Shown here: one piece after another, positions 6,381 to 37,057 of the stretch
Position numbering within the stretch: position 1 is the stretch's first letter
Layout of the letters: every line of letters begins with the position of its first letter
Assembly (NCBI GenBank): GCA_032718475.1
Contig: JAUCBJ010006769.1
Coordinates: forward strand, 1 to 64,000
Origin: Nemertoderma westbladi
Taxonomy: Eukaryota > Animalia > Xenacoelomorpha
DNA: 64,000 bases
Direction of reading: 5' to 3'
Notes under the pieces: generated by a model
The model's input: the letters and a program-made list of their open reading frames with translations, nothing else
The model's database searches: none
Told to the model about the DNA's origin: nothing
Program-made: the position numbers and the translations under genes

Positions 6381-6391
6381 TTTAAATTTAT

Positions 6392-7957: not shown

Positions 7958-7972
7958 TGGAGATGCGTTCGG

Positions 7973-12566: not shown

Positions 12567-12689
12567 TTAACGTTTACACCCCAATTCCGCTTGGTTTATA
12601 TCTTGATTATCAATAAAATAGTAACGTGAAATATTTATGGAGCGTATATTTGAGAATGTTGAAATAATGCGTTTAGTAGTGTGACCAGC

Positions 12690-13370: not shown

Positions 13371-13468
13371 ATAATAACTAATAATCACGAACCCCATCCT
13401 CTTATAATATATAACTCTGTAGTAGTCAGTAGTAGTAGTAGTAATAGTAGTAGTAATAGTAGTAGTAG

Positions 13469-15569
13469 TGTTACGGTATATGGCGCTGTATCCATATTAT
13501 TAGTCATCATGCAGTATGCAATATTAGTCCGTTATACTGTACGTAATATTAGTCCGTTGTGCAGCATAATATTTTAGATAAGGCATAATGACGCAATGAT
13601 ATTTAGATAGGGAAATCGGAACGCCCATATATTTGCATCCATTTATTTTGTATAGTATGTAGCCCTACCTACGTAATTTTGTATTAGGTTATATGTAGAT
13701 AGTTCCAGGGTAAGTTTATTCGGACCCTGGATTCCGTGCTTGCTGATATTAGCTTTAGTAGGGCTAGCATATAGGGACGCCGTCCTGGCCATTCAGTAGC
13801 CAGAGACGTGAACCATTACCATATATGGTAATAATTTGAGCAATAGGGCTACAATCCGGCCTCCTTATTGGATTAACTGCTTCCAGGTTGGTCTAATGCT
13901 AGCATGGACTGGAGAGCCAATAGGAGAGCGATTGAGTCACCCTATTGCATCATCCCACCCGGATCACCTATAAATTGGCGGTGTGCCGGTAGAGCCTGTT
14001 ATCAATCTCTCACTCACATGACACATTCTCACTGCTGTTGAGCTGTCTCTAATTTTGTATTAGGATATCGTACTTTCTGCAATTTGCTAATTTGATTTTT
14101 TTCGTGAAATGATTTGCTAGTGCGATTACTTGCTTGTGTTTCTCAATAATTCCTTCGATTACTGCTAATTACAATTGAACTATGATTTCTACTCTTTGAT
14201 TAATGGTTCTATGTGATTCTTTTCTGCGCAATAATCCTAAGGGATTTCTGAGACTGTCAGACTTTGTGATTTGCATGCGCCGCTACGGTAGCTATTAGCA
14301 TAATGGAGGGCTAAGGTGCCAGTGGGCGATGGGCTCATCGGGGGGTTAGCGACGAAGGGAGTGCGGAGGATTCAAAAGCGGGCAACGCTGGCGGGGGTCA
14401 ACGTTGTGGTCGGGCAGTTTGGACTGTGGGTTGGAGACCGCTCGCCGGTACAGTAATTAGGGGGCTGATGATCCAAGGTTTTGTCTCTATTTAGTATTAG
14501 GGGGCAGGAATTGGGTTAGTTAGGAAGCCTAGATGTACCCGGGAGGGGCCTGCATACCTTACAGTAAGTAAGTAAGGGGGTAAGTACGTAAGTAAGTTGC
14601 GAATTATATAATTGCAGATTGTATAATTGCAAGTCGTGCTATTGTGATCCGTGATTGCTGACTCTGATTGATGTGTTACTAAAGTGTGCCTAAGATTACG
14701 AATGCTTAGATAGGCGCTCTTTTCCCTTTGATTGATTTCTATCTCTTAGTTTACTGTAAATAATTACTGATTAGGTCAAAGTAATACAGTATTTTAGGCT
14801 GTTACATATTTGTGACTGTAATTAATTAGTAAAATTAAGAATTAGTACGCAGCATAGCGGAGAGTAGCTAAGGTAATAATTAGAGTACCGTAAACTATTC
14901 ACGCTGAGCGGTTATTTGAATTAGCGGGCAATAAACTAGATCGCAATAGTTAGTACGCAAGACACTAGTAAGTTGCTGGCCTAAAGCCAGCTGCAGGCAA
15001 GTTTAGACCCAGAGCGGTAACACCTACGAAAGACATTGTACTGTATCATTTTGATTATTTTAAATATTCTCGCATTCACACATTCCGTTAGGGAACCCTC
15101 AGTATTCGCGATTAGAAAAGACGTAAGCATTGGCGTATTTCAGTAGTAAAATTAGGCGTAAGAATATACTCTGAGTGCAAAGCCCCTCGCACTCGTCTTA
15201 AGTAAGCTTAGGGAGCCGACTCGGGTTTATTGTTTTGGTTATTCCCGCGTGGCTCATAGATTCGAACAGTTAGCTCTCTATCGAGCGATCGGTAGAGAAA
15301 GGAACAAGCGATTTTGCAGGAGCTGTGTAAATTTAGTAAAATATATTAGCGGACGGCAGATTAGCGCCATCCAACGGTAAGTAGCGGTTTTGTATTTAGC
15401 AACCCTTACAATTTAGTAATAGCACACTCCTGATCCCCTTTACTTAACAGTAGAGCAGTCTTTGTGTCTTATTGGTTAGGCGAGAGCTCATTAGGTTGGC
15501 AGAGAGGTATACGGGTATTTGTCTGTTCAACAGTTCTGCTGTTAGTATAGGTGTCGCGGTTGTTTAACA
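13469..15569 (+). repeat. 5' LTR of element A
   Basis: Direct repeat of 27895-29995. Only two mismatches seen by eye (13644/28070 and 14329/28755). Confidence 0.98.
13860..14010 (+). promoter_or_regulatory. Putative LTR Pol II promoter (CCAAT boxes + TATA)
   Basis: ATTGG ~13867, AGCCAATAGG ~13915, CCTATAAA ~13967. The LTR of B has the same layout (CCAATAAG twice at 51083/51143, TATATAAAG ~51010, minus). Confidence 0.5.
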
Positions 15570-16812
15570 GTAAGGTATGTGTTATTGTCTGCTGTAGGCC
15601 TACCGCGTACAGTAGGACATAGAGTATATTCTTAGGCCGTGAAGATTTAGATTTACTGATACTTCGTAACAGTAAGGTATGTATTTTGTTTTTCTGTACT
15701 GCGTACAGTAAAGTAAGATTAAGATTACTGTATTAGGCACTGTACTGCGTACAGTAAGACATTAAGTATATTCTTTTAGGCTGATAGTTTAGATTACTGT
15801 ATTCACTGGCTGCGTACGATAGTACAGTAGTACATTAGGCTGATTGCTGTTACTGCGTACGGTAGAAGGACATTTGTTTGCCGTACCACACACACAGTAT
15901 CATTAGGCTGTTAGGTTGGTGTACTGTTTTACTTACTGTACTGCGTACAGTGGATGTACGATAGTGCGTTTTTGCTAATTGCGAATACAGCAGTTCCTTG
16001 GGCTTTAGGGCGAATTGTAATTAGTAAGTTTTTTGAAATTTTAGCTAGGTTTGCGAGAATTCAGTTTCGGTCAAAATTATTTTGTAAAATTCTAGAGTTT
16101 TGTACCGGTATGTTAGGTAACCGTTTAGTTATTTTATACCATCTGGAGATACATGGCAAGACGGAACTTCTGAGTTTGGGGTTCGTGTGGGTCTGCGGGT
16201 TCGGTTTGCAATCAGCGAAGGGACTGAATCTTTGGACGCGGACGTGGAATCTCACAGCAAACAAGGTTAGTTGTTCTGTTGGCACCACTGTGTTTGTGGA
16301 AGCAGTAAAAAATTACCGGTTGTTTAACTGCGAAGCTGAACTCAATTTATTAGTTAGGATATTTAGGTTTAGCCGGCCATGGTTTTTTGAATCGCTCAAG
16401 TTAGAGAGAGAGTTAGAGAGAGTCGCAACCCGAAGATGTAGCCACGCGCTAGTGGATACATATAATATTTGAAACTAAAATTACGTTGATTAGAGCTATA
16501 TATATATAAAATTAGAAATATTCAGGTGGCAAGTATATTTTGAATATTTTGTATTAGATTCAGAGTTATTTTGTGCTATACCGGTATTTAATATTATATA
16601 GTAGCTATATAATAATATTTTTGTTTAAATATTGTGCTAGTATTTGCTATAACTATATACCCCATTAAATTCACAATATTGCATTGCGAATTTATTTGAC
16701 ATTTGGACCAACTGATTATTTGACAAATAATTTGACCGTATTTCGGTTAAATTATAATTATATCTCGAACTTTTGCGAGATATTTTGCCGGAAGGCAAAC
16801 ATTATTTAGACT

Positions 16813-19800
16813 ATGAGTGTCTCAGACAAGGAGGCACTAGAGGACAGCTATGAGACGGCGGCTGGACCGCCGACTGACGATAGCGTAAACATTACTGTTG
16901 ATGACAATGCCGACTATGACGACGCAGCGAGCGACGCTGACGTAAGTGAACAGGAGGACGAGACAGTGACTAGTGAGGAAGAACAACAACCTCAAGTAAT
17001 AGTATTAGGATCCCCTACCGCTACTGTAAGAAAGGACTGCACAGCAGCCCGGACAGAGGTGAGTGATAGGGAGGGTAGTGTAGCAGAAGCGAGAGCCCGG
17101 AGCCCGGTTTCCAGACCTGTGGGTATGGTAAGTGCCGTGGTCCCAACGGCTGTTAGGAGTACCCGTAGTTCCCGAAATAATCCTTCAAGTCCACCGAGTG
17201 TGAGTCAGGTAAGCGAGAGAGAACTTGATATCGCGATAAAGAAGAAACTTCGCGCGCACGCCGGACATATAACTCGGACGACGGACAAGGTAAGGAAGAT
17301 GTTAGCCGACTCAGCGAACATCGGACGGGAAGGGTTAGTAGAGATTAGAAGAGGATATAACTCAGCGTTATTCAAGCAGACGGAGGAGCTTGCAGTCCTA
17401 GCGAAGAAGGCAGTAGAGTCTCAGTCGAGCGACGTGGCGACGAGGATTTACGACAGGGTTTTAGCAGCCTTGTTGGAGCACCGCGAGTTATCGGAGCGAT
17501 TCCGACGAGTTAGGACGGAGAACTGGCTGCTATGGGCATCACAAACGCAGGCGACTCAGGTGAGTGACGCAGATTTAAGAGACTTAGTGGAGCGGGAAGA
17601 GATCCAAGATAAGGAAGAGCGCCGGTATCAAAGGGAAGTTACTAGCTGGCTGATGCAGAATGGAGTGGTGGTGCCGGGCCAGGTGCTACCGACGACGGAG
17701 AACATCCAACAGAGGACGTTGACTCCACCCGACGATGCATCCAGAGACAGCGGCGATTCCCAGGTTAGTCACGCGCGAGGGAAGGTTATATGTGCTAGAT
17801 CCCTTGTTTCTCACAACTCGGCGGAGGAGAGAAGACGCCGACTAGACGAACAGCAGGCGGAAGTTTTGCGTGCACAGGAAGCACGGAAGGAAGCCGAGCG
17901 GGAACGGGAGCGCACACGTAAGTTAGACGCAAAGTTGCGAGAGTTGGAAGAAAAAGGTAAGCGTGAGCAAGCGGAACGCGAACAGGAAGAACGCGAACTT
18001 CAACTTCAACGCGAACAGGAAGAACGCGAACTTCAACTCCAACGCGAACGCGAAGAACGCGAACTCCAACTCCAACGCGAACGCGAAGAACGTGAACTTC
18101 AACTTCAACGCGAACGCGAACGGGAAGCTAAGGAATGCGAGCAAAGAAGACGCGAACTCCAACTCGAACGCGAGCGCAAGGAGCGCGAACTTGAGCGCGA
18201 GAGGGAGCGACGGGCGTTGTATGAAGAGAAGGCGCGTGTGGAAGAAGAGGGCGCAGCGAGACGAGCGAGGGAAGAAGAAGAACGTAAACTGGCGCAGTTG
18301 GAAAGTGCGAGATTAAGTTTAGAGAGCGAAGAACGGACTAGGAAGGCGAACGAAATCGCCGAGAAGGGGATGCGAATGATCGAAGAATGTGGGGCGAGTG
18401 TAGGGACAGAGTTGCGAGAACTGTTCGCACTGCAGAAGGCCGAACAGGAAGCGAGAACTCCGACCATACGCGAGTCGACGACGACCAGAATTCCTATACC
18501 CGGTCCAGCTATTACGAGTACACGGATCGCTAAACCGTTCTCTACATATCGCACGCCGGTTGGTATTGGTGCTTCACCCATCGCTCAGGATCCACGTCAT
18601 CGGAACACCGCACCACTATACACCGAACGCGAGAACGAAGAGTTTAGAGAAACTCCGACGGGCCAAGTATTTGGCGAACCGAACCCGCGGGTTTGGATTA
18701 CGCAGACGGAGCGCCGACCCAGTTCGACGGAGAACTTCCGGGTTAAACCGGAAGAGGGATCATATGAGAGACAGCGGATTACTCAGATAGAGCCGACTAT
18801 ACAACAGAACCCTAGCCAGGAATTTATTACGAGGGATGAGTTAAGTGCTAGTTTAGCGCAAGCTATATCGCCACACATCCAACCTATAACGGACATGCTT
18901 AGCAACCTACGGTTAAAGGAAGCAGCCCAGGTAAGAAGTAATTCAAATCCTAGCAGGCCTGAGTTAGATAAAGTCCAGCCTAGTCAACGAGTACGCATAT
19001 CGGAGGAAACTATACCACATAGACCTCAGGTAAGGACGCCTGTCCCGAATATTCATAATCCCAATTTCGAAAATTCGGCCGAGAAATTTATTCAGGATGC
19101 TTGGGTCAGGGCCTCGGCGCGCAAACCATCGCGAGCGCTAAGGACTGACACCGAGTCAAGCGATGAAGAGGAAGACATGAGACGTCAGAAGTCCCGAAAC
19201 TATAAGGAAAGAAGGACCGACGCGGAGCAGGTAAGTTGGAACCACCGGGAAAGGACCAGACTTAACAACCCTGCGGAACTAAACCATTTGTTAACCCGGA
19301 ACGACGCAACCCTTAGAGACATAGGTAAGTTTGCTGCTAGGCAAGGACTGCCGACGCAACAACCCCAGAAGTTTATGGGTAACCATAAGCATTGGAGGAC
19401 CTTCAAAACCTATGTCGACGAGCAGCTAACCAACAGCACCTTTACTCCCAACGAGAAGTTCAACTATTTGCTTCAGATGCTCCATCGAGAACCTAGAGCC
19501 ATTGCTGATAACTTCGTCGGCAATGAGAGGGCATTTGAGCTAGCGATGAAGACACTTAGTGACATCTACGGGAATAAAACCAAGATGGCGCAGTCGATAG
19601 TAGAAGACTTGGGTAAGGGCGGAAGGATTACAACTCCGTTAGAGCTGTTGAACTTAGCGAACGCTATTTCGAACGCATTGGACATCTTGAGGACGGTAAA
19701 TCTACCTCATCATGGTGATCACGCCGAAGTTTTAAAGAGCGTAATAAGACGTCTAAACATGCGTTACCGACAGAAATGGCGCAAATTAGAGAATAAGTTG

Positions 19801-22800
19801 GAGGGCCAAGGTAAAGTATTGACACTTCAGCATATTCATGACATGATAGCCACAGACGCAGTAGCAGAGATGAAATCAAACTTCTCAGAAGAGAATATGA
19901 GAGAGTCTAAACCTGTTACCGGTAAGTCTATGGTAAGTTTTGACGACGACAGGACCACTGTGACATTTAACTCAGTAGACAGATATAATTCGAGTACCCC
20001 AGCCTTTAGATCAGACTCGCGAGTATGGTCAGGTGAGCGGTTAGATAGACCTAGGTTAAAGCAACAGGAGTTGCCGGATGGATTTGCAGGTTGCCAATAC
20101 TGCTTACTAAAGGAGGTAAGATCTGACGACCATAAGTTAGATAGTTGCAGACGGTTCAAAGAATTAAATTCGGAACAGAGAAGAGTTCAAGTGCGGACGT
20201 TGGACACCTGTTGGGCATGTCTTGCGCCAGGTCATGTACGGCGGCAGTGCCCGAACAGCAAGGACGGATGCATGGAATGCGGCAGACTACATCACAAGTT
20301 GCTACATGCGGATTTCCACACCCCAACGGACCGTTACTTACAGCGAAATCCTCACAGGAAGGGGAGCAAAGAACCCGTATCGATAAGGAGGAATACGTAC
20401 ACTGGCATCCAGGACGATGGTTACCAACCAGGTTCGTCGGACGAGGATGGCGAGTCGAGCGCGAGAGAAGTGACCTGCCAAGGTTTCACCGCGGATAGTT
20501 CATCGACCAGCGCGCGGACGTATTTATCATCGGCCACGTCGGAAATATTTAGCGTGATTCCGGTGAAACTCACTGGCGATAAGGGATCGAAGCGAATATA
20601 TGTGATGTTGGACACTGCGTCCACATTATCCTATATCGACGAGGAAGTGGCGAGAGCCGTTTCTAGCTTCCAGGACGCCGAGGAGATCCAAATAGAGTTG
20701 AAGTCTATGCATGGGGTAGGAGACCTCAATGGACACAGAATTTCGGTGGAACTAGATTCCCTACTTCCGAGAGACCAACACACTCGACAAGAATGGAAAG
20801 CTTTGCCATTGGACGGATTTAAGTGTCTAGCTATGAAGGGATTCGGCAGGCAGTTAGGTAAGGTGCCGCCGATGAGTCCCATAGCACAGGAGTATTTTGA
20901 CAAGCTCAGGATACCCAGACACCAGGTAGGTTATAGGAATGTTTCTATGTTGATTGGTGCAGAACAGCTGATCGCACACCAAATATGGGAAACGAGACCA
21001 GCTGAGCCGCATGTCAATGGACCACATGCCCATAGGACTATACTAGGTTGGTATACAAGAGTACCCATGTCTTATGAGTTTACAGGTGGCGACAAGCCAA
21101 CAAACAGATACGACGAATTACAGCCTATAATTCAACCACCGTTAGTAGAACCACCAGACATAGACGAGTTTAGGAGAACCTGTATTGACCACTATAGTGA
21201 CTTTAGCGAGTCGGACGAGGAGTTGATTCCCGATAATGTTAGGTTGTCGGAACCACTTCATAATGACCGGACAGATAGTGAACCCGAGGACTACTGTTAT
21301 CAGACCCGTGGGTCTGGTTCAACGGTCCACGCTACCTATTTGACTAACGTTTTGACTTATACAGACATAGTGGAGGGTCAAGTGGCTAAATATCGAGACC
21401 TAGACATTTTCCAATACAGTGAGGAGGAATTACAGAAGGAATTGATACGCCAGGACCTCGAGACAGGAGCCAGAACCGTCGAATGGCTGGATAGGGACGC
21501 AATGGAACCCGGTGGATATGACCTAGCCATGTCTACTGATGAGAAACGGTCGCTGGAGATGATGGAAGACACCATACGTCTGCTACCGACTGGACATTTT
21601 GAAGTTGGAATGTTGTGGCGTCGACAACCACCTAAGTTGGAGAACAACTACAGCTTAGCCTTGAAAAGATTAAACGGAGTAAGGGCTCGGTTGTTGAAGA
21701 ATCCGGACATTAGGGAGAAGTATTGCGCCCAGATCAACAACTATTTCGCCAAGGGATTTGCTGGGAAGGTAGAGGACCCTGACTTAGTGACAGACCAGAC
21801 TTATTACCTTCCACACCACTATGTGACTCACCCTGACAAGCCAGACAAAGTCCGAGTAGTCAACGACTGCGCAGCAGTCTATAGAGGTATGTCCCTGAAT
21901 TCAGAGTTGATGGATGGTCCCAACCTGAACAATTATTTGATAGGAATACTGTTGCGTTTTAGACAGCGGCGATTCGCATTTACTTGTGACATCGAGGCGA
22001 TGTTCCACCAGGTAAGAGCCTGTAAGGCAGACCAGGATAGCCTTCGATTTCTCTGGTTTGAGAATGAAGACTTATCCGGCCCAGTGGTTACATACCAAAT
22101 GTACGTTAGGATATTTGGCGCCCGCGATAGTCCAAATGGCACGCTGTTTGTTCTAAAGAAAACGGCAACAGCCCAGATTGGTAAGTATCCAGTAGAAGTA
22201 ATCGAGTCCATCTTGAGAAACTTCTATATGGACGACGGATTGGTGTCCAAGGACACGGCGGAACAAGCCATAGAAGTGGCTCACGGCCTGCAAGAGTGCT
22301 TGGCTACAGGGGGTTTTCCTCTGACCAAGTTCACTACGAACTCGGAGGCCCTATTAGAGTCGTTCCCGGTAAAAGATCGCGGGAGCGGAGACATAGAATT
22401 GGGGGTAGAACCAATCCCCATGGCGCGAGTACTGGGACTCGCTTGGAACCCGAACTCAGATAAGTTCCAGGTAAGAGTTAGATTTGAGCCCAGTAGCCCA
22501 GACAAAGTTTTGACAAAGAGAATTTGCTTATCGACTTTAAGTAGACTATTTGACCCGATGAACTTTATCAGTCCGGTTATATTACAGGCACGAGCGTGCA
22601 TGAGGAAAATTTGGTTGTCCGACGTAGAGTGGGACGAACCAATATCTCCTATACATGCAAAGCAGTGGAGGGAGTGGGAAGCCGAGTTGCATCTATTGAA
22701 AAACATAGATGTACCCCGTTCCTACTTTCCGAATCAGCTGGTATTTCCAACTGATTTAGAGCTGCACCTATTTAGTGACGCAAGTGACACCGGCTTTGGT

Positions 22801-25200
22801 ATGGTAGCCTACCTTCGCCGAGAGGTAAGTCAGGACAAATTTGAGACGGCCTTTGTGACTTCTAGATCAAAGACAATGCCGGTCAAATACATGACTGTCC
22901 CTCGTGCAGAGTTACAGGCGGCTGTAGTTTCGGTCGAGGTAAGTAAGCAAATAACTGAGGAGTTAGACACGACATTGACCTTATTCTATTGGACGGACGC
23001 ATCCTTGGTGTTAGTATACATTGCGGCCGACAATATTGCACTAAAGACATTTGTGGCCAACAGACGCGCTCAGATCGTTGACTTTTCGACGAAGGAACAA
23101 TGGAGACATTGTCCGGGAGTGTTAAACCCGGCCGACATAACTTCGAGAGGTGCAATGCCGGCGGAATTCTGTCAGGAAGAGTCGCAGGAGTTTTGGTTGC
23201 ATGGACCTGATTTTCTAACGAGGACGCAGGAACATTGGCCAGAGCGACTAAAGATTGTGACCAATCCGATGCCTGAAGATGCAGAAGTCAAAGTGGAGAA
23301 AGTCTCTAAGTCAAAGTCTAAAGCCAAACTTAAGTCATTGGAGCGGCCTGAAGAGTCATTGGAGCGGCCTGAAGAGTCATTGGAGCGGCCCGGAGACCTG
23401 TCAGACCAACAGACTTACGTGACTACTAGGTCCGGAAGGGTAAGTTATGACATCAAACCACCCTTACAGACTAAACCGGAGTCACAATTGGTAAGTGACG
23501 GACAGAAAATGACCGACACAATGGAGTCTTTGGTTTCCAAACCTGCGGGTTTGGATTCGAAACTTCCATTAGTTAGCGGACAACCGTCGCTGGCATTAGA
23601 GCCATGTAGTATTTATGACAAATTACTAAATTCGTCTGCCTCTTGGCTGACAATTTGTAAAAGAACTGCGTGGTTAAGCCGATACATTTTGTACCTTTGT
23701 TTAAAACATTCGAAACATTTGAGAGAACCATTGAGCACCAATAGTGAGCGAATTCGGAAATTGAAACAACCTCTGACAGAGGATGAGATTGATCAAGCGG
23801 AATTAAAGCATTTGAAACATTATCAAATGTGTGCCTTCCCTAAAGAATTCCATCTATTATCGGCTCAACGACCAGTTCTCTATAAACCCCTTAGAAAATG
23901 GAGTCCATTAATCCATAAGGGTTTAATTTGTCATAGATCGAGAATCCAGACTGTCGACATAAACTCACAGTTTCGGTTCCCAGTGATAATCCCTAGTCAC
24001 CCAATAGAATTGCAAAGAGCGATTCTATGGGATATACACAAGAGGTTGCATCACGCGGGAAAGTTACACTGTTTGTCGGCAGCGAGACAGCGATTCATTC
24101 TATTGCAGCCAAGCAGGGCAGTCGGCACTATGTACGACGCCTGTCTGGTTTGCAAGAGGGTGAACGCCAGAGTATTGGAACAGGAGATGGCTGAACTCCC
24201 GGAAGCGAGAGTGCAGGCATATAACCCACCCTTTACGAACACAGGGGTGGATTGTTTTGGTCCGATTGAAGCAAAGAGTGGACGGCTGACCCATAAGCGA
24301 TGGGGTCTGCTACTGACATGCATGGCTAGTAGAGCCATACACATCGAGCGTGTGGCAGACATGTCGACCAAATCTCTGCTCCTGGCCTTGAAGAGATTTA
24401 TGGCCAGGAGAGGACTAGTAAAGGCGTTCTACTCTGACAAGGGTACAAACTTTGTCGGAGGGAATAGCGAGTTGAACGCGGCTCATAAAGCAGCACAGAA
24501 TAAGGAAATTTCTGCAGCACTTTTGCCGCAACGAGTAGAATGGAGATTTAATACTCCAGAAAGTCCTTGGAGAGGAGGAAGTTGGGAGCGTTTAGTTCGC
24601 TCTGTAAAGCAGGCCATTGCCAAAACATTGCCTGTAAACAAACAACTTACCGACGACGAACTGGTCACAGCTTTCATTGAAATCGAGCATACCCTAAACT
24701 CGAGGCCGATAGCTATGTTGCCAGACGGTGTTGCATTAACGCCGAATCATTTGCTAATGCAGAGTCCAGCATTTCTTGTGCCGGCATCAGAACCCATTAG
24801 TGCCGACCTATATAGTCGTAAAAGCTGGAAAGTAACACAGTTTGTGGCGTACACATTCTGGGAATATTGGCGGGAATACTATCTTCCCACCATATCCACC
24901 AGAACAAAGTGGTACAAAACGGTTCGGAGTCTCCAAAGGGGAGATTACGTATTGATAACCGAACCTATTGTCAAGAGAAAGTATTGGGAGACGGGAGTGA
25001 TCTTGCACACACACCCAGACGTGCAAAACATAGTGCGCACAGTCACTGTGAAAATTAGGTGCAAGTGTCCGCACCCAAAAAAGTGTAAAACTAATGGTTT
25101 ACACACCTTGGACCGACCGGTCCAAGATATCGTGTTATTAGAGGAGACACGTATCGAGACGGGAGATTATAGTTTGTCTCCTGCCTCAAAACAGAATTAG
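16813..25200 (+). CDS. BEL/Pao gag-pol polyprotein (Gag with triple Zn knuckle, aspartic protease, RT, RNase H, integrase)
   Basis: CWACLAPGHVRRQC and CMECGRLHHKLLH; MLDTAS; YLPHH...DIEAMFHQV...FYMDD; FSDAS; NPADITSRG; HHAG..CLVC; DCFGP, SDKGTNF, WERLV. Confidence 0.98.
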   Translation: MSVSDKEALEDSYETAAGPPTDDSVNITVDDNADYDDAASDADVSEQEDETVTSEEEQQPQVIVLGSPTATVRKDCTAARTEVSDREGSVAEARARSPVSRPVGMVSAVVPTAVRSTRSSRNNPSSPPSVSQVSERELDIAIKKKLRAHAGHITRTTDKVRKMLADSANIGREGLVEIRRGYNSALFKQTEELAVLAKKAVESQSSDVATRIYDRVLAALLEHRELSERFRRVRTENWLLWASQTQATQVSDADLRDLVEREEIQDKEERRYQREVTSWLMQNGVVVPGQVLPTTENIQQRTLTPPDDASRDSGDSQVSHARGKVICARSLVSHNSAEERRRRLDEQQAEVLRAQEARKEAERERERTRKLDAKLRELEEKGKREQAEREQEERELQLQREQEERELQLQREREERELQLQREREERELQLQREREREAKECEQRRRELQLERERKERELERERERRALYEEKARVEEEGAARRAREEEERKLAQLESARLSLESEERTRKANEIAEKGMRMIEECGASVGTELRELFALQKAEQEARTPTIRESTTTRIPIPGPAITSTRIAKPFSTYRTPVGIGASPIAQDPRHRNTAPLYTERENEEFRETPTGQVFGEPNPRVWITQTERRPSSTENFRVKPEEGSYERQRITQIEPTIQQNPSQEFITRDELSASLAQAISPHIQPITDMLSNLRLKEAAQVRSNSNPSRPELDKVQPSQRVRISEETIPHRPQVRTPVPNIHNPNFENSAEKFIQDAWVRASARKPSRALRTDTESSDEEEDMRRQKSRNYKERRTDAEQVSWNHRERTRLNNPAELNHLLTRNDATLRDIGKFAARQGLPTQQPQKFMGNHKHWRTFKTYVDEQLTNSTFTPNEKFNYLLQMLHREPRAIADNFVGNERAFELAMKTLSDIYGNKTKMAQSIVEDLGKGGRITTPLELLNLANAISNALDILRTVNLPHHGDHAEVLKSVIRRLNMRYRQKWRKLENKLEGQGKVLTLQHIHDMIATDAVAEMKSNFSEENMRESKPVTGKSMVSFDDDRTTVTFNSVDRYNSSTPAFRSDSRVWSGERLDRPRLKQQELPDGFAGCQYCLLKEVRSDDHKLDSCRRFKELNSEQRRVQVRTLDTCWACLAPGHVRRQCPNSKDGCMECGRLHHKLLHADFHTPTDRYLQRNPHRKGSKEPVSIRRNTYTGIQDDGYQPGSSDEDGESSAREVTCQGFTADSSSTSARTYLSSATSEIFSVIPVKLTGDKGSKRIYVMLDTASTLSYIDEEVARAVSSFQDAEEIQIELKSMHGVGDLNGHRISVELDSLLPRDQHTRQEWKALPLDGFKCLAMKGFGRQLGKVPPMSPIAQEYFDKLRIPRHQVGYRNVSMLIGAEQLIAHQIWETRPAEPHVNGPHAHRTILGWYTRVPMSYEFTGGDKPTNRYDELQPIIQPPLVEPPDIDEFRRTCIDHYSDFSESDEELIPDNVRLSEPLHNDRTDSEPEDYCYQTRGSGSTVHATYLTNVLTYTDIVEGQVAKYRDLDIFQYSEEELQKELIRQDLETGARTVEWLDRDAMEPGGYDLAMSTDEKRSLEMMEDTIRLLPTGHFEVGMLWRRQPPKLENNYSLALKRLNGVRARLLKNPDIREKYCAQINNYFAKGFAGKVEDPDLVTDQTYYLPHHYVTHPDKPDKVRVVNDCAAVYRGMSLNSELMDGPNLNNYLIGILLRFRQRRFAFTCDIEAMFHQVRACKADQDSLRFLWFENEDLSGPVVTYQMYVRIFGARDSPNGTLFVLKKTATAQIGKYPVEVIESILRNFYMDDGLVSKDTAEQAIEVAHGLQECLATGGFPLTKFTTNSEALLESFPVKDRGSGDIELGVEPIPMARVLGLAWNPNSDKFQVRVRFEPSSPDKVLTKRICLSTLSRLFDPMNFISPVILQARACMRKIWLSDVEWDEPISPIHAKQWREWEAELHLLKNIDVPRSYFPNQLVFPTDLELHLFSDASDTGFGMVAYLRREVSQDKFETAFVTSRSKTMPVKYMTVPRAELQAAVVSVEVSKQITEELDTTLTLFYWTDASLVLVYIAADNIALKTFVANRRAQIVDFSTKEQWRHCPGVLNPADITSRGAMPAEFCQEESQEFWLHGPDFLTRTQEHWPERLKIVTNPMPEDAEVKVEKVSKSKSKAKLKSLERPEESLERPEESLERPGDLSDQQTYVTTRSGRVSYDIKPPLQTKPESQLVSDGQKMTDTMESLVSKPAGLDSKLPLVSGQPSLALEPCSIYDKLLNSSASWLTICKRTAWLSRYILYLCLKHSKHLREPLSTNSERIRKLKQPLTEDEIDQAELKHLKHYQMCAFPKEFHLLSAQRPVLYKPLRKWSPLIHKGLICHRSRIQTVDINSQFRFPVIIPSHPIELQRAILWDIHKRLHHAGKLHCLSAARQRFILLQPSRAVGTMYDACLVCKRVNARVLEQEMAELPEARVQAYNPPFTNTGVDCFGPIEAKSGRLTHKRWGLLLTCMASRAIHIERVADMSTKSLLLALKRFMARRGLVKAFYSDKGTNFVGGNSELNAAHKAAQNKEISAALLPQRVEWRFNTPESPWRGGSWERLVRSVKQAIAKTLPVNKQLTDDELVTAFIEIEHTLNSRPIAMLPDGVALTPNHLLMQSPAFLVPASEPISADLYSRKSWKVTQFVAYTFWEYWREYYLPTISTRTKWYKTVRSLQRGDYVLITEPIVKRKYWETGVILHTHPDVQNIVRTVTVKIRCKCPHPKKCKTNGLHTLDRPVQDIVLLEETRIETGDYSLSPASKQN

Positions 25201-25939
25201 TGTTGGACGCAACTCACTTCGTATGCATTCCTCGTATGCAAATACAAGGAAATGCATAGGAGCGGGGTTGTGGTGATTTGCGTTGAGTTTTGTCTGGTGG
25301 GTATCAAAACAAAATTTTATTTTCAAAATTTTTGGAAAATTAGAAAATTTTAAAAATTAGAAGTGAACCCAAGACAATTCCAGACGCTGTGTATAGACGC
25401 GTTTTAGAATTCGTCTATAGATAAACAGTAATTTGAAAAGTCGTGAAGCCTGGAAAATAGCATTTAGAAACCATGGTGACGGCTATATTACGTAGGAGTG
25501 TAAATTGAGTTTAGCAACTTCCACAGATTGGTGCCAACAGTGCAACTAAGGTGCTAAAGGTTAGTAGCACCAGAGGCGTACATGGACCCCACTCAGTAGT
25601 TTGCAGGATGTGTGATGTTCGATTATCAAACCTGTGGGTTTGGTATAGTCGAGTATTGTGGCTATAGTCCTTTCTAACTACTGTAGTTTAGTAACGAGTA
25701 ATGGGAGTAGTTTGGGCATCAAAAAGTGAGTTGGTCACGGCCAGTTTATCTCCAAACTTTTTGCGCTATGCATGGGAATAGGTTAGAGAATAGTTAGTTA
25801 GGAAGAGACGGGATCTAGAGAGTCGAACCTGAACTGCTGGAAGGCGGGGGGGTTCGGGAGGTCTGTCCTTCGGCGACATCTAACTGATTACCCACAGTGT
25901 AATTGGTTTGCGTAACGGAACACTTATTGGGATATATAT

Positions 25940-27024
25940 GTATATACGCGGGGCGTAATAGAGAAGGATATTAGAGCGCAACCGCGCAGGGGATTTACTG
26001 CCAGAGAGGAGGCGGAGTTACCATTCGCGCGACCGGGATGTAAAGATTCGAACGTTTACTACCATGGGCGGTCGGTGATGGAGCTAAATGGGAAATACAA
26101 ACCCACGATTCCCGACCGACTAGACGAGCAACATCCAGAACCGATATTAACGCGTTGTCAAGCTCACCAGTTCCTTAGATATAACGAGGGAGGTTACCCG
26201 ATGAGCGACCCGATGATCAGTATCGACTTCGGCGAAAGCGACCTCCGAGACCCATTACGCCGACCGTTACGACTTTAGATCCGTATACAGAGATTAAACC
26301 TGTTCGACACCCGCTTTGATAGACACGGCGGCGGCCATTTCGCTATACCGAGCCTATAAAGACCTAGAGGCGCGGCGCGAAGCGGTACGGGACTCGAGTT
26401 CCTGGACCACGTTCACTTCGCTTCACCAGGAGAGGAAGGTCACGCCTGAGTATCCAGGCGAGATTCGCGCCGTCCATCCGTCTACTAACTATACCCACGA
26501 TCCGCGGTTTATACGATATTTACTCCAAATTATTTCGGGAAGTTTCGACGAACGCATTATTAAGCCCGAATATGTCCAATCCTTTATATATCATCGTCGC
26601 TCTGATATATACGTCTAGATTTATTACCCAGCGCACAATTGGCGGCCTAAGGAGACTCGTTTGGGGTCATTGACCTCTGAACGAGTGGAGGATCAGGACC
26701 GCCGCGCCCACAGCGACAACAGCCGGAGCTCACAGCTCGCGGCAAGTACCAGAAGGAGGAGTCCTTGGCAAGCGTCAAGCCAAGGACGAGCAGTTCTATT
26801 CGACGGTTGAAGAAAAGGAGTTGGCGGAGGCGCCCACAGGGACACGGCAAATGGGACGAGGCCGAGGGAGGAGCACCAGTCAGGAGATAGTCGGTGCCCA
26901 GGGAACGTCGTCGCCGGTTCCGGGAAGTGACGCCTCAAGGACGCCGTCAACAGAGTCTACAGGGGGTAGACTGGTGTATCTGGAGAAGGGAGCGAGCCCG
27001 AGAGACCCAGGAGCTAGCCGATGA
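25940..27024 (+). pseudogene. Decayed accessory ORF of element A, homologous to 52230-54544
   Basis: Homologous blocks PRRGFTAREEAELPF, PEPILTRCQAHQFLRYNEGGYPMSDP, SLYRAYK, HDPRFIRYLLQI and GRGRGRST, split by stops and frameshifts. ATA lies where B has ATG. Confidence 0.8.
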
Positions 27025-27887
27025 GACTATAATATCACGGAGCGACAAACTCTAGACATATACATCATCGTCGCTCTGATGTATATCGTAGGTTTTGATC
27101 AATCATTCGACTGGACTCATATACACTAGTCGTATCCATATTTTAGAATTTTATTTTCGAAGGCCGAAAAATATTGAAAGGAAATACTTTATTTTGTAGT
27201 CCGATTGGAAATAGTAAATACTTTAACTATATTTGATTTTGTGTATATGACTTTATTTGCTCTAAAGTTTATTGAAAGAGGCAAAGGAAGTGATTGGGGA
27301 GACAAACCCGCGGGTTTGGCTTACTCCTATCACTTACCTGAGCAATCATCAAACCAAGATGATTTGCGCTTTTATAAGAAATTAAGTAAAGTCCGAAAAT
27401 GAAAGAAATTATTACGTATTTTATATTTAGTTTGATTATCGGCCTTTAATGCAATTTAGTTAAAAATTTAGCCTCAAATACGTTTATATTTAGTTTATCT
27501 TGTTAATGTTGATCGTTAATTTGAGATGGGAAATGGGGGACATTGTCCTAGCCATGTTCCATTTCAATAGGTAGACAGTCAATTTGTAAATAAATAAAGG
27601 AAGTAATATTTTTGTAATTTAATTTTGTATGTAGTAATCATTATGTAGAACGAATGAGAAACAGTATTTTGTAAATTTAATTTGTATGTAATAATCGTTA
27701 ACAGTGAGAGAGATAATATTTTGTAATTTTAATTTGTATGTAAATTCATTATGCAATATCTATGGCAATATTTGTAAATAGTAGAATTATTATGTTATTT
27801 AGATTGGTTGGAAGAAATTTATTTTGTTTTGTATACATCACCTTATACTCTTCTACAATTGGAGGGAAACATTGTATGATTTCCCTT

Positions 27888-27894
27888 GGAGCGG
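27888..27894 (+). other. Plus-strand priming tract (GGAGCGG) of element A
   Basis: Directly abuts the 3' LTR TG. The same heptamer abuts the LTR of B (51421-51427). Confidence 0.7.
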
Positions 27895-29995
27895 TGTTAC
27901 GGTATATGGCGCTGTATCCATATTATTAGTCATCATGCAGTATGCAATATTAGTCCGTTATACTGTACGTAATATTAGTCCGTTGTGCAGCATAATATTT
28001 TAGATAAGGCATAATGACGCAATGATATTTAGATAGGGAAATCGGAACGCCCATATATTTGCATCCATTCATTTTGTATAGTATGTAGCCCTACCTACGT
28101 AATTTTGTATTAGGTTATATGTAGATAGTTCCAGGGTAAGTTTATTCGGACCCTGGATTCCGTGCTTGCTGATATTAGCTTTAGTAGGGCTAGCATATAG
28201 GGACGCCGTCCTGGCCATTCAGTAGCCAGAGACGTGAACCATTACCATATATGGTAATAATTTGAGCAATAGGGCTACAATCCGGCCTCCTTATTGGATT
28301 AACTGCTTCCAGGTTGGTCTAATGCTAGCATGGACTGGAGAGCCAATAGGAGAGCGATTGAGTCACCCTATTGCATCATCCCACCCGGATCACCTATAAA
28401 TTGGCGGTGTGCCGGTAGAGCCTGTTATCAATCTCTCACTCACATGACACATTCTCACTGCTGTTGAGCTGTCTCTAATTTTGTATTAGGATATCGTACT
28501 TTCTGCAATTTGCTAATTTGATTTTTTTCGTGAAATGATTTGCTAGTGCGATTACTTGCTTGTGTTTCTCAATAATTCCTTCGATTACTGCTAATTACAA
28601 TTGAACTATGATTTCTACTCTTTGATTAATGGTTCTATGTGATTCTTTTCTGCGCAATAATCCTAAGGGATTTCTGAGACTGTCAGACTTTGTGATTTGC
28701 ATGCGCCGCTACGGTAGCTATTAGCATAATGGAGGGCTAAGGTGCCAGTGGGCGGTGGGCTCATCGGGGGGTTAGCGACGAAGGGAGTGCGGAGGATTCA
28801 AAAGCGGGCAACGCTGGCGGGGGTCAACGTTGTGGTCGGGCAGTTTGGACTGTGGGTTGGAGACCGCTCGCCGGTACAGTAATTAGGGGGCTGATGATCC
28901 AAGGTTTTGTCTCTATTTAGTATTAGGGGGCAGGAATTGGGTTAGTTAGGAAGCCTAGATGTACCCGGGAGGGGCCTGCATACCTTACAGTAAGTAAGTA
29001 AGGGGGTAAGTACGTAAGTAAGTTGCGAATTATATAATTGCAGATTGTATAATTGCAAGTCGTGCTATTGTGATCCGTGATTGCTGACTCTGATTGATGT
29101 GTTACTAAAGTGTGCCTAAGATTACGAATGCTTAGATAGGCGCTCTTTTCCCTTTGATTGATTTCTATCTCTTAGTTTACTGTAAATAATTACTGATTAG
29201 GTCAAAGTAATACAGTATTTTAGGCTGTTACATATTTGTGACTGTAATTAATTAGTAAAATTAAGAATTAGTACGCAGCATAGCGGAGAGTAGCTAAGGT
29301 AATAATTAGAGTACCGTAAACTATTCACGCTGAGCGGTTATTTGAATTAGCGGGCAATAAACTAGATCGCAATAGTTAGTACGCAAGACACTAGTAAGTT
29401 GCTGGCCTAAAGCCAGCTGCAGGCAAGTTTAGACCCAGAGCGGTAACACCTACGAAAGACATTGTACTGTATCATTTTGATTATTTTAAATATTCTCGCA
29501 TTCACACATTCCGTTAGGGAACCCTCAGTATTCGCGATTAGAAAAGACGTAAGCATTGGCGTATTTCAGTAGTAAAATTAGGCGTAAGAATATACTCTGA
29601 GTGCAAAGCCCCTCGCACTCGTCTTAAGTAAGCTTAGGGAGCCGACTCGGGTTTATTGTTTTGGTTATTCCCGCGTGGCTCATAGATTCGAACAGTTAGC
29701 TCTCTATCGAGCGATCGGTAGAGAAAGGAACAAGCGATTTTGCAGGAGCTGTGTAAATTTAGTAAAATATATTAGCGGACGGCAGATTAGCGCCATCCAA
29801 CGGTAAGTAGCGGTTTTGTATTTAGCAACCCTTACAATTTAGTAATAGCACACTCCTGATCCCCTTTACTTAACAGTAGAGCAGTCTTTGTGTCTTATTG
29901 GTTAGGCGAGAGCTCATTAGGTTGGCAGAGAGGTATACGGGTATTTGTCTGTTCAACAGTTCTGCTGTTAGTATAGGTGTCGCGGTTGTTTAACA
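27895..29995 (+). repeat. 3' LTR of element A
   Basis: Direct repeat of the 5' LTR, followed by the TSD. Confidence 0.98.
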
Positions 29996-31019
29996 AGTAG
30001 TATAAGTAGTAAGTAATAGTAAAGGAGATCGGTTTAAACCAAAGTGATAAAGTAACATTATTATATAACATAATCATATAGACAAAGTAGAATAAGATAC
30101 AGATTCATAATTATTTTATCAAACTCATGTACTACTTACTTCAATGTGCCAATTGTAATAATAATTAAACATATTATTCCGATTAATCTGCGTTTGGCCC
30201 TATAAGATATTATACTGAAGTGTTTTATATCAATATATCCATGCGAGTAAACAAGAAGTGAAGTAAATGTTTATTATTATAGTTTTAGAAATTGAATGAT
30301 ATACCCAAGATAGTGAAATAGATAATATACAAGAAATTGCCATTTGATCAGATATATCAAAACGGCATCTTTAGTATAATACCGTAATAGTATCAATTAA
30401 CTCTGTTATACAATGTAAATATACTAAATCTATTTATAAATATATTATAAGCCCTACATTGTATATTTCTCCTACAGGTAGACAATGTAGATGTTAAAAC
30501 TTGATATAATTTGGTATAATGTATAACATATTACAAATAAGACTGAGGCAGCTAAACTATATTGCAAAGAAATCAAATATCCTAAAGTAATATACTAGAC
30601 CCTCCCTCCACCCTATAAATAGTGTTCACCACCTACCCCACCCACCGCCCTTATTACTTCATAATAATGAAAGATAGTACTGGCGCTCCGGTCACTCCGT
30701 TCCCTCCGCTGGGGGGGTTAAGTTGTAGGTTTTGACACTATGCAAAATCCGAGCACAGAGTTAGAAGCGCATTGGATAGGCGAACATTTCTTGCAGTGAA
30801 AGTATTTCCATACCTATTATAGTTTTCAAGAGAGTCAGACATGAGTAGCTAAAATTTAAATTTTTTCGGTAAAGTCTGATTTCACCGGTACCTGTCATCC
30901 GAAATATGGATTGTGATATATAGTTAAATGCGGGTCCACTAACTGTACATTCACATTTTTTCAAGAAAAAAATTCGATCAAGGGTTTTCGAAATATTTTC
31001 GAATTACCGGAAGCAGACT

Positions 31020-36995: not shown

Positions 36996-37057
36996 AGGTC
37001 TTAAATGAGAGTCTTACAAATTCGAACGTCAACGAACAAATTCGACGGTTACTGTTC

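What the first reader, a model, noticed from the sequence alone, without database searches (positions are those of the whole stretch)
25709..25758. Highly conserved non-coding internal-loop RNA upstream of the accessory gene
Seen in A: AGTTTGGG-CATCAAAAA-GTGA gttgg TCAC-GGCCAGTTTATC-TCCAAACT. Seen in B (54800-54747, minus): AGTTTGGG-ATCAAAAA-GTGAG tattttaga CTCAC-GGCCAGTTTAG-CCCAAATT. The internal loop is near invariant and the apical loop variable, between elements whose flanking DNA is unalignable. Inference: protein-binding or catalytic RNA, for example a CTE/RRE-like export element, possibly the target of the knuckle/RG protein.
Basis: partly seen in the sequence, partly recalled or inferred. 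Interest (0 to 1): 0.75.

Follow-up and report, generated by a model that had tools for sequence, protein, structure and literature searches.

The report
Conserved RNA hairpin upstream of retrotransposon ORF3
Two distantly related BEL/Pao jumping genes keep an almost identical 50-letter hairpin about 180 letters ahead of their shared third gene, and it likely acts as an RNA signal that would control splicing or export of the element's transcript, though with only two copies its function remains untested.

Summary
The window carries two BEL/Pao LTR retrotransposons: A on the + strand (complete, LTRs 99.86% identical) and B on the - strand (no RT/RNase H). Their integrases are 55% identical and four-fold sites are near saturation (39.5% identical). 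Both still share four exact blocks (9+14+14+5 nt) that fold into the same two-stem hairpin. The hairpin lies 411-509 nt after the pol stop and about 180 nt before the start of a homologous third ORF. The local alignment score is 34.5 against a maximum of 26 in 500 shuffles.

The two G-U pairs fit a sense-strand RNA. There is no double compensatory change, so sequence as well as shape is constrained.

No Rfam family matches, including the known small ribozymes. No further copy was found in viral, metagenome or prokaryote collections, and no host genome is held.

A branch-point/AG acceptor-like signal sits at the hairpin base.

My best reading (0.35) is a splicing-control hairpin on the unspliced RNA. 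A Rev/RRE-like or CTE-like protein-binding export element (0.25) is not excluded. A ribozyme is unlikely. Interest is moderate.

The parts
25709..25758 (+). Hairpin copy A: outer stem 25709-25716 / 25751-25758 (8 bp), inner stem 25726-25729 / 25735-25738 (4 bp), apical loop 25730-25734
   Evidence: pairs AU GC UA UA UA GC GC GU | GC UA GC AU; MFE -12.9 kcal/mol, z -1.99
54747..54800 (-). Hairpin copy B: outer stem 8 bp, inner stem 5 bp, apical loop 9 nt
   Evidence: pairs AU GU UA UA UA GC GC GC | GC UA GC AU GC; MFE -14.4 kcal/mol, z -2.81
25726..25731 (+). GTGAGT, a 5' splice-site consensus hexamer inside copy A (preceded by AAA); the last two letters lie in A's apical loop
   Evidence: sequence; simple PWM score 8.98 bits (frequencies recalled)
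54779..54784 (-). GTGAGT, the same hexamer in copy B
   Evidence: sequence; PWM 8.98 bits, rank 14 of 742 GT sites on B's sense strand
25662..25708 (+). Weakly conserved upstream block with a branch-point-like TTCTAAC and several AGs (acceptor-like AGs at 25685 and 25690; TAG at 25708-25710 overlaps the hairpin base)
   Evidence: local alignment; acceptor scan
54801..54842 (-). Upstream block in B: TACTAAT, then a pyrimidine-rich stretch, with the branch A 28 nt before the first AG, which is the AG that opens the hairpin (54800-54799)
16810..25200 (+). Element A gag-pol reading frame (2796 aa, stop to stop); the hairpin starts 509 nt after its stop
   Evidence: Peptidase_A17, DUF1759, DUF5641, Integrase_H2C2
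55211..59320 (-). Element B gag-C-terminus/protease/integrase frame (1369 aa) without RT/RNase H; the hairpin starts 411 nt after its stop
25937..27360 (+). Element A third ORF (accessory gene), homologous to B's but in three different frames in this copy; homology starts 179 nt after the hairpin's end
   Evidence: tblastx; ORF list; other copies carry one extra letter at 26298
52230..54565 (-). Element B third ORF, read as two overlapping frames (54664-53597 and 53717-52230); the second has CCHC knuckles and an RG-rich tail; homology to A starts 182 nt after the hairpin's end
13468..15572 (+). Element A 5' LTR (TG...CA ends at 13469 and 15569 by eye)
   Evidence: 2106-column match, 99.86% identical to 27894-29999
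27894..29999 (+). Element A 3' LTR; the hairpin lies 2.1 kb upstream of it, so it is not the polypurine tract

Best explanation
The two BEL/Pao elements share a roughly 50-nt sense-strand hairpin between pol and their common third ORF. It is likely a cis-acting splicing-control signal on the unspliced transcript. It would hold a consensus 5' splice-site hexamer (GUGAGU), and the AG of an acceptor-like site, inside its stems. In this way it would tune how much genomic RNA is spliced into the ORF3 message and how much stays whole.

Shown: the conservation, the fold, the sense-strand G-U pairs, the position, and the presence of the splice-like signals.

Inferred: that U1 snRNP or splicing factors bind here, that ORF3 is expressed from a spliced RNA, and that the hairpin modulates this. 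It could act as a decoy 5' splice site like the RSV negative regulator of splicing, or as a structure-attenuated real splice site like the MLV and HIV-1 donor hairpins.
For: 1. Strong purifying selection on a non-coding patch. Four exact blocks (9+14+14+5 nt) survive between elements whose four-fold sites are 39.5% identical (45 of 114) and whose integrases are 54.6% identical. The local alignment scores 34.5, and 0 of 500 shuffles reach it.
2. The indels between the copies (1 nt, a 4-nt difference in loop length, 1 nt) rule out coding.
3. The hairpin is kept in both copies. The only two stem differences are G-C<->G-U, which pair in the sense RNA but would be C-A mismatches in the antisense.
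4. GUGAGU is identical in both copies. In A its last two letters lie outside the stem, in an otherwise unconserved loop.
5. In B a textbook acceptor arrangement ends exactly at the first two letters of the hairpin: TACTAAT, a pyrimidine-rich stretch, and the first AG with its G 28 nt from the branch A. A second such site (CTAAC, 27 nt, CTCTAG) lies at 54577, just before the conserved ORF3 residues.
6. ORF3 protein similarity extends upstream of B's first in-frame ATG, and A has no ATG there. A start codon supplied by an upstream exon is therefore plausible.
7. The distance from the hairpin's end to the start of ORF3 homology is kept (179 vs 182 nt), although the sequence between is unalignable.
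8. Precedents, read as abstracts or passages: the RSV NRS decoy 5' splice site (PMC3082916, abstract in the listing); MLV 5' splice-site attenuation by a stem-loop (PMC2794156, abstract); spliced accessory mRNA in the LTR retrotransposon Cer1 (PMC10309623, abstract, section 15 and a passage of section 28).
Against: - There are no RNA data. The one run guessed to be RNA showed no joint at the motif.
- By a simple PWM the hexamer site scores 8.98 bits, rank 14 of 742 GT sites in B. In A, 25 of 709 GT sites score higher, many of them inside gag-pol. A 5' splice-site look-alike is therefore not rare in these elements (frequencies recalled, approximate).
- Position -1 is A, not G.
- The splice consensus explains only about 8 of the 42 invariant letters. 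AUCAAAAA, UCACGGCCAGUUUA and UUUGGG need another explanation.
- In A the AG at the hairpin base has a purine-rich, poor acceptor context. The better acceptor-like AGs lie 20-25 nt upstream.
- In A the candidate downstream acceptor (CCCACAG, read by eye) is followed by an in-frame stop at 25913-25915, before the conserved ORF3 residues.
- Thermodynamic support is modest. B's antisense strand has a z-score of -2.32, as good as the sense strand.
- RNAalifold found no covariation (0 of 11 pairs) and proposed an alternative pairing of UAGUUUGG with CCAGUUUA.
- Only two copies exist.
Confidence: 0.35

Rival explanations
1. A protein-binding export or packaging element. The asymmetric internal loop (AUCAAAAA / GGCCAGUUUA) would be a specific binding site on the unspliced genomic RNA. 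The binding protein could be the element's own ORF3 CCHC/RG protein, as in Rev/RRE or CERV, or a host export factor, as with a CTE. There would be no direct role for splice signals.
For: - Both loop strands are invariant, and the hairpin is small and asymmetric.
- The hairpin lies where it would be in the intron of a spliced ORF3 message, and so only on unspliced RNA, if B's acceptor at 54577 is used.
- ORF3 is co-conserved directly downstream at a fixed distance. It carries 2-3 CCHC knuckles and an RG-rich tail; the Atlas gave weak leads to CCHC proteins (score 0.87).
- Precedent: Cer1 needs its own accessory protein, which has a cysteine-rich loop, to export genomic RNA (PMC10309623, section 15).
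Against: - The stems are also invariant, which a pure loop-recognition model does not require.
- No binding or export data exist.
- The element is a single 50-nt hairpin, far smaller than an RRE.
- No sequence comparison with a CTE could be made here.
- ORF3 has no informative relatives, and its predicted structures were unusable (pLDDT 34.4 and 33.8).
Confidence: 0.25
2. A DNA-level core promoter for ORF3. The A-rich box TCAAAAAG would act with an initiator-like CCAGTTT, so that ORF3 is transcribed from an internal promoter, as in foamy viruses.
For: CCAGTTT fits the YYANWYY initiator consensus (recalled). The A-rich box lies 24 nt (A) and 30 nt (B) upstream of the initiator's A. The element sits about 180 nt before ORF3 in both copies.
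Against: - The box is not a TATA box.
- The spacing differs by 6 bp between the copies.
- A promoter does not explain two nested stems, nor the pair-preserving G-C<->G-U changes specific to the sense strand.
- There are no transcription start data.
Confidence: 0.1
3. A cis element of reverse transcription, for example part of an internal plus-strand priming and termination region working together with the PPT-like GGAGCGG copy and the A/T tracts that follow pol.
For: A PPT-like block (CATAGGAGCGGG) and AnTm tracts are conserved 300-450 nt upstream in both elements. The same heptamer abuts A's 3' LTR.
Against: The hairpin is several hundred nt from that block and has no purine tract of its own. 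Nothing in its sequence matches the LTR ends or the leader beyond short GGCC-based complementarity (duplex energies reached by 3 of 200 shuffles in A and 14 of 200 in B, at non-equivalent leader positions).
Confidence: 0.07
4. A small self-cleaving ribozyme.
For: It is a compact conserved hairpin with invariant unpaired strands, and ribozymes are known in other retroelements (recalled).
Against: There were 0 Rfam matches at gathering thresholds and 0 at E<=10 around both copies; Rfam holds the hammerhead, twister, twister-sister, pistol, hatchet and HDV-like models. I saw no known catalytic core by eye. Cleaving the genomic RNA 2 kb before its 3' end would be harmful to the element.
Confidence: 0.03
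5. No function: a patch copied between the two families by recombination or gene conversion, or chance similarity.
For: There are only two copies, and no independent lineage was found.
Against: A recent patch would be near-identical throughout. Here the apical loop is wholly different in sequence and length, while 42 letters around it are exact and the stem differences preserve pairing. Chance is excluded by the shuffles. The conserved distance to ORF3 and the weak collinear similarity around it argue for vertical descent.
Confidence: 0.05

Closest known systems
Rous sarcoma virus negative regulator of splicing (NRS)
   Same: A cis-acting retroelement RNA that combines a purine-rich part with a 5' splice-site-like sequence, which engages the splicing machinery without productive splicing and so preserves unspliced RNA (PMC3082916, abstract seen). 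The element here has an A-run followed by GUGAGU.
   Different: The NRS is about 230 nt long (recalled), lies in gag far from the acceptor, and its decoy site is non-consensus with an overlapping U11 site (recalled). Here a 50-nt hairpin with a consensus hexamer lies after pol, about 170 nt before a candidate acceptor. There is no sequence similarity and no functional data.
Structure-attenuated retroviral splice donors (MLV 5' splice-site stem-loop; HIV-1 SD hairpin)
   Same: A 5' splice site whose accessibility is set by a local stem-loop (PMC2794156, abstract seen). Here GUGA of GUGAGU is paired in the inner stem.
   Different: Those are the major donors in the 5' leader. This site lies 3' of pol, and its use as a donor is unproven.
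HIV-1 Rev/RRE and Cer1 CERV (element-encoded export factor acting on unspliced genomic RNA)
   Same: The retroelement has an extra ORF encoding a putative RNA-binding protein, and a conserved structured RNA on the unspliced transcript. CERV is encoded by a spliced mRNA, has a cysteine-rich loop and is required for genomic RNA export (PMC10309623, abstract and section 15).
   Different: The RRE is about 350 nt with many stems (PMC4488727, abstract in the listing). My term search of the Cer1 paper for 'response element' and 'cis-acting' found 0 occurrences. The ORF3 protein here has no detectable similarity to Rev or CERV; searches gave none or only weak CCHC hits.
Mason-Pfizer monkey virus constitutive transport element (CTE)
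   Same: A stem with conserved asymmetric internal loops in the 3' part of a retroelement RNA, bound directly by host NXF1 (PMC10309623 section 15; loop details recalled).
   Different: The CTE has two copies of its loop in a longer stem and lies between the last ORF and the 3' LTR (recalled). This element has one loop and lies before the last ORF.

Membership tests
Any Rfam family (including hammerhead, twister, twister-sister, pistol, hatchet, HDV-like ribozymes) | Covariance-model match at or above the family's gathering score | tested here: not met
   0 matches in the whole window at gathering thresholds. 0 matches at E<=10 in 301-nt windows around copy A and copy B.
Functional 5' splice site (spliceosomal donor) | Match to the MAG|GURAGU consensus / U1 snRNA complementarity | tested here: met
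   AAA|GUGAGU in both copies: +1 to +6 match the consensus, -2 matches, -1 does not. PWM 8.98 bits; rank 14 of 742 in B; in A, 25 of 709 sites score higher (PWM frequencies recalled).
Functional 5' splice site (spliceosomal donor) | Observed exon-exon junction starting at this site in RNA | not testable with these tools
   No run on record as RNA holds the stretch. The one run guessed to be RNA showed no joint here.
RSV-type negative regulator of splicing | Bipartite: SR-protein-binding purine-rich part plus a decoy 5' splice site that binds U1 (and U11) snRNP | tested here: inconclusive
   An A-run plus a consensus hexamer are present. Binding is not testable. I did not look for a U11-type site beyond reading the sequence.
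RSV-type negative regulator of splicing | Inhibits splicing to a downstream 3' splice site, raising unspliced RNA | not testable with these tools
   This needs a reporter or RNA data.
Rev response element-like (element-encoded adaptor binds a structured RNA) | Large multi-stem RNA with a high-affinity purine-rich internal loop on which the protein oligomerises | tested here: not met
   Conservation is confined to about 100 nt, and the hairpin is 50-54 nt with one internal loop.
Rev response element-like (element-encoded adaptor binds a structured RNA) | Specific binding by the element's own accessory protein | not testable with these tools
   ORF3 has CCHC knuckles and an RG tail, but no protein-RNA test is available.
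CTE (NXF1-binding constitutive transport element) | Conserved asymmetric internal loop(s) of defined sequence that bind NXF1/TAP | not tested
   No CTE sequence was at hand from a tool; any resemblance is of general shape only.
BEL/Pao (Belpaoviridae) LTR retrotransposon (the host elements) | LTRs flanking gag-pol with Pao-type domains and a C-terminal integrase with DUF5641 | tested here: met
   A: Peptidase_A17 3.4e-39, DUF5641 3.8e-16, DUF1759 4.4e-09, Integrase_H2C2. B: DUF5641 9.6e-21, DUF1759 1.5e-09. A's LTRs are 99.86% identical.

The most novel reading that the evidence does not exclude
BEL/Pao retrotransposons of this lineage run a two-part Rev/RRE-like system of their own. The 50-nt hairpin is the response element on the unspliced genomic RNA. 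The ORF3 zinc-knuckle/RG protein encoded just downstream binds it and overrides a built-in 5' splice-site signal, so that whole genomes are exported. This would be an independent invention of regulated retroviral RNA export in an invertebrate retrotransposon, and it is kept even by a derivative that has lost its reverse transcriptase.
Probability: 0.15. Interest if true: 0.7.

Novelty: new variant of a known kind. Interest (0 to 1): 0.4.

Why it matters
Cis-acting RNA signals that balance splicing, export and packaging are well mapped in vertebrate retroviruses. In LTR retrotransposons of invertebrates they are almost unknown. My two literature searches on BEL/Pao and a term search of the main BEL/Pao survey (PMC3118150: 0 occurrences each of 'hairpin', 'secondary structure' and 'splic') turned up no described element.

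A short, sharply conserved hairpin at a fixed distance before a lineage-specific RNA-binding-type ORF is a concrete, testable candidate for such a signal. If it is linked to the ORF3 protein, it would parallel Rev/RRE and the recently described CERV of Cer1, for which my term search of that paper found no mention of a response element. If it is only a splice-site hairpin, it is an ordinary though new example of a known strategy.

Tried and rejected
- Host genome: none is held.
- Earlier scan notes: nothing by sequence or by place. The word search returned only BEL/Pao self-priming notes unrelated to this motif.
- Pattern scans:
  - Viral contigs gave 1 chance hit inside a phage gene, and 3 phage hits to the 5' half alone that lack the 3' half.
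  - Metagenome contigs gave 80 loci (the list may be capped at 80). None of the 80 has the outer stem, and all look like prokaryotic chance matches.
  - Genome contigs gave 0.
- Integrase alignment against viral contigs and genome contigs: no relatives.
- Integrase protein search: 371 proteins at E<=1e-20, with the 120 best listed all <=43% identical. No close relative of the A/B lineage is available, and no DNA can be fetched for these proteins.
- Sequencing runs: no RNA holder is listed. Contigs of four runs show only that element A is highly multicopy in one organism. The only joint in the run guessed to be RNA is a 271-nt skip that also stands in DNA runs.
- Supplement S1 of PMC3118150 (all BEL/Pao nucleotide sequences) could not be unpacked because it is too large. 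It might hold relatives with the motif.
- Long-range pairing of the conserved strands with the 5' leaders: GGCC-based duplexes of -19.8 and -18.7 kcal/mol, reached by 3 of 200 and 14 of 200 shuffles. They lie at non-equivalent places, so I did not pursue them.
- Other readings considered by eye and rejected for lack of the defining motifs: tRNA-like or PBS-like, snoRNA, miRNA precursor, SECIS, IRE, Sm site / SL RNA-like, and TURBS.
- An in-frame join in A from the ATG at 25701, through the hexamer, to an AG at 25960-61 is possible. I reject it as a 1-in-3 chance with a poor acceptor and no counterpart in B.
- AlphaFold2 of the two ORF3 frames was unusable (pLDDT 34.4 and 33.8), so I ran no fold searches.
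- I did not build a covariance model from two sequences. Only the window and chance loci could have been searched, and mismatch scans already show no third copy in the window.

Full report
WHAT IS IN THE WINDOW

The window holds two LTR retrotransposons of the BEL/Pao group.

Element A lies on the + strand.
- Its LTRs are 13468-15572 and 27894-29999, 99.86% identical over 2106 columns. By eye they have TG...CA ends and a 5-bp AGTAG target duplication.
- It has one 2796-aa gag-pol frame, 16810-25200, with Pao-type domains: Peptidase_A17 3.4e-39, DUF1759, Integrase_H2C2 and DUF5641.

Element B lies on the - strand and runs off the window's right end.
- It has a gag frame 63247-60308 and a second frame 59320-55211.
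- That second frame aligns to A's gag C-terminus and protease (37% over 458 aa) and to A's integrase (46% over 601 aa).
- It has nothing matching A residues about 1421-2213, the RT/RNase H part. B is therefore probably a non-autonomous derivative.

Both elements carry a homologous third ORF after pol. tblastx aligns A 25937-26059 with B 54565-54443 (41% identity) and A 26108-26212 with B 54067-53963 (66%), with two more pieces further on.
- In B the ORF reads as two overlapping frames, 54664-53597 and 53717-52230. The second has CX2CX4HX4C knuckles and an RG-rich tail (Pfam zf-CCHC is weak at 0.0029).
- In this copy of A the ORF is spread over three frames. Contigs of other copies carry one extra letter at 26298.

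CHECKING THE OBSERVATION

The two quoted sequences stand exactly at 25709-25758 (+) and 54800-54747 (-).

The similarity is not chance.
- A gapped pattern of the two conserved strands finds only these 2 sites, and 0 of 100 shuffles gave any.
- In blastn of the two elements, the motif is the only non-coding hit among the 4 with E<1e-3.
- The best local alignment of the two pol-to-ORF3 spacers falls on the motif with score 34.5. In 500 dinucleotide shuffles the mean was 15.9, the sd 2.3 and the maximum 26, so 0 of 500 reached it.

The background divergence is near saturation.
- Over 452 aligned integrase codons, amino-acid identity is 54.6% and third-position identity is 37.2%.
- 45 of 114 four-fold sites are identical.
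- Against that background the copies share exact blocks TAGTTTGGG, ATCAAAAAGTGAGT, TCACGGCCAGTTTA and CCAAA.

The indels between the copies (one C, a 5- versus 9-nt loop, one letter at the 3' junction) exclude a coding explanation. A recent recombination patch is unlikely, because the loop is completely different while everything around it is exact.

THE FOLD

- The outer stem has 8 bp: A reads AU GC UA UA UA GC GC GU, and B reads AU GU UA UA UA GC GC GC.
- The inner stem has 4 bp in A and 5 bp in B.
- Between the stems is an asymmetric internal loop.

The only stem differences are two one-sided G-C<->G-U changes. They keep pairing in the sense RNA but would be C-A mismatches in the antisense. 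This is the main argument for a sense-strand RNA.

Several results count against a purely structural reading.
- No pair changed on both sides.
- RNAalifold saw 0 covarying pairs of 11 and offered an alternative pairing, UAGUUUGG with CCAGUUUA.
- Folding energies are only modestly better than shuffles. For the exact motif, z is -1.99 (38 of 1000 shuffles as low) for A and -2.81 (9 of 1000) for B. For 71-nt windows, z is -0.92 and -1.69 on the sense strand, -0.92 on A's antisense and -2.32 on B's antisense.

Sequence as well as shape is therefore under constraint.

POSITION

- The hairpin begins 509 nt (A) and 411 nt (B) after the pol stop.
- It ends 179 nt (A) and 182 nt (B) before the first aligned ORF3 residue, although the stretch between is unalignable.
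- It lies 2.1 kb before A's 3' LTR, so it is neither the PBS nor the terminal PPT.

The flanks are not entirely unalignable.
- The best local alignment extends upstream into a block containing TTCTAAC (A) and TACTAAT (B).
- A second block, CATAGGAGCGGG, followed by A/T tracts, is conserved shortly after pol.

WHAT IT IS NOT

- No Rfam family matches: 0 at gathering thresholds over the whole window, and 0 at E<=10 around either copy. Membership of the known small self-cleaving ribozyme families fails.
- No third copy exists in the window at up to 3 mismatches per 14-mer.
- No copy was found in viral contigs, metagenome contigs (80 loci returned, possibly capped, all chance matches without the stems) or prokaryotic genomes.
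- No close relative of the elements is reachable. The integrase alignment found nothing in the DNA collections. The best listed protein relatives are <=43% identical.
- ORF3 is essentially an orphan: no hit for its first part, 2 weak hits for the knuckle part in 1.84 billion representatives, and weak Atlas leads to CCHC proteins (0.87).
- Single-sequence AlphaFold2 models of the two ORF3 frames were unusable.

The conserved 5' strand reads AAA|GUGAGU, the consensus 5' splice-site hexamer. In A its last two letters lie in the otherwise unconserved loop.

Acceptor-like signals lie around it.
- In B a branch-point-like TACTAAT is followed by a pyrimidine-rich stretch. The first AG, with its G 28 nt from the branch A, is the AG that opens the hairpin.
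- A second such site (CTAAC, 27 nt, CTCTAG) lies at 54577, immediately before the conserved ORF3 residues.

ORF3 similarity runs upstream of B's first in-frame ATG, and A has no ATG there. This suits a start codon supplied by splicing, as in Cer1's cerv (PMC10309623, passage of section 28).

Several points count against this.
- By a simple PWM with recalled frequencies, the site scores 8.98 bits. That is rank 14 of 742 in B, and 25 of 709 sites score higher in A, many inside gag-pol.
- Position -1 is A.
- A's acceptor context at the hairpin base is poor.
- A's candidate downstream acceptor (read by eye) is followed by an in-frame stop.
- The splice consensus accounts for only a minority of the invariant letters.
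- There are no RNA data.

MECHANISM

I commit, at 0.35, to a splicing-control hairpin on the unspliced transcript. A U1-type site and an acceptor AG are held in stems close to the ORF3 acceptor. This would set the balance between whole genomic RNA and the ORF3 message. It could work as a decoy, as in the RSV NRS, or as a structure-attenuated true site, as in the MLV and HIV-1 donors (abstracts of PMC3082916 and PMC2794156).

It is fully compatible with the position and with the RNA-binding look of ORF3, and Cer1/CERV gives it a precedent in an LTR retrotransposon (PMC10309623).

The remaining rivals are:
- an internal core promoter (0.10);
- a reverse-transcription element (0.07);
- a non-functional patch (0.05);
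- a ribozyme (0.03).

What is shown is the conservation, the fold, the strand and the position. What is inferred is every statement about binding, splicing or export.

VERDICT

This is a real, selectively maintained, lineage-specific cis element of a BEL/Pao clade. It has no family in Rfam, and I found no description of it in two literature searches and one term search.

It is a new variant of a known kind, the retroelement post-transcriptional control RNAs. The evidence rests on two copies only, and the function is untested. Interest is moderate, and would be higher if the link to the ORF3 protein proves true.

Noticed in passing
window 25255-25360 (+) and 55101-54985 (-); also 27888-27894, 51421-51427, 23340-23388, 57131-57260: The heptamer GGAGCGG directly abuts A's 3' LTR, so it is the likely polypurine tract. 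It recurs in a conserved block CATAGGAGCGGG shortly after the pol stop in both elements, followed within about 100 nt by AnTm tracts. This layout is reminiscent of the lentiviral central PPT / central termination sequence (recalled). GGAGCGG occurs 12 times in the window against 3.3 expected (0 of 100 shuffles reach 12), and 11 of the 12 are on the sense strand of A or B.
   Followed up: partly
window 55211-59320 (-), roughly 57800-56900: Element B has no counterpart of A's RT/RNase H (A residues about 1421-2213). In its place stands a low-complexity, repeat-rich stretch. B still keeps gag, protease, integrase, ORF3 and the hairpin, so it is a probable non-autonomous derivative.
   Followed up: partly
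window 15570-15960 (+) and 63460-63310 (-): Both 5' leaders carry repeats built on UAGGC(C/U). A has a 10-nt palindrome GTAGGCCTAC at 15594-15603 and five further TTAGGC units. B has three tandem roughly 24-nt hairpin units (AAAATTGGCCG..TAGGCTAATTTT). They are possible packaging or dimerisation signals. A's leader also starts with a 5' splice-site-like AAG|GTATGT at 15575, repeated at 15677.
   Followed up: no
window 25916-27360 (+): In this copy of A the third ORF is spread over three frames (tblastx frames 2, 3, 1) and has no in-frame ATG before the conserved N-terminal residues. Contigs of other copies carry one extra letter at 26298.
   Followed up: partly
window 921-9226 (-): Helitron-like ORFs (Helitron_like_N, PIF1 helicase, DUF6570) adjoin a 51-nt tandem array of 20 copies at 7907-9175 that stays open in both strands' frames.
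   Followed up: no
window 16810-25200 (+): The sense strand of A's gag-pol holds many near-consensus 5' splice-site hexamers: 21 GT sites score >=10 bits in the simple PWM, 10 of them GTAAGT. Whether this exceeds expectation was not tested.
   Followed up: no
window 12287-12618, 36260-37050, 41216-41620: Satellite-like arrays: 13-nt units (18 or more copies), 22/30-nt units rich in inverted repeats, and 24-nt units. A short repeat, TCTAGCGGCAGACTGG, is scattered at 12.7-13.0 kb, 32.6 kb, 37.2-37.6 kb and 45.2-45.4 kb.
   Followed up: no
window 54925-54903, 52215-52190, 51740-51718 (-): A roughly 23-nt motif, GGAAGACT.G.G.GCCTTTCTTA, occurs three times in B: between pol and the hairpin, just after the ORF3 stop next to a purine-rich run, and about 480 nt further on. 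Its meaning is unknown (read by eye).
   Followed up: no
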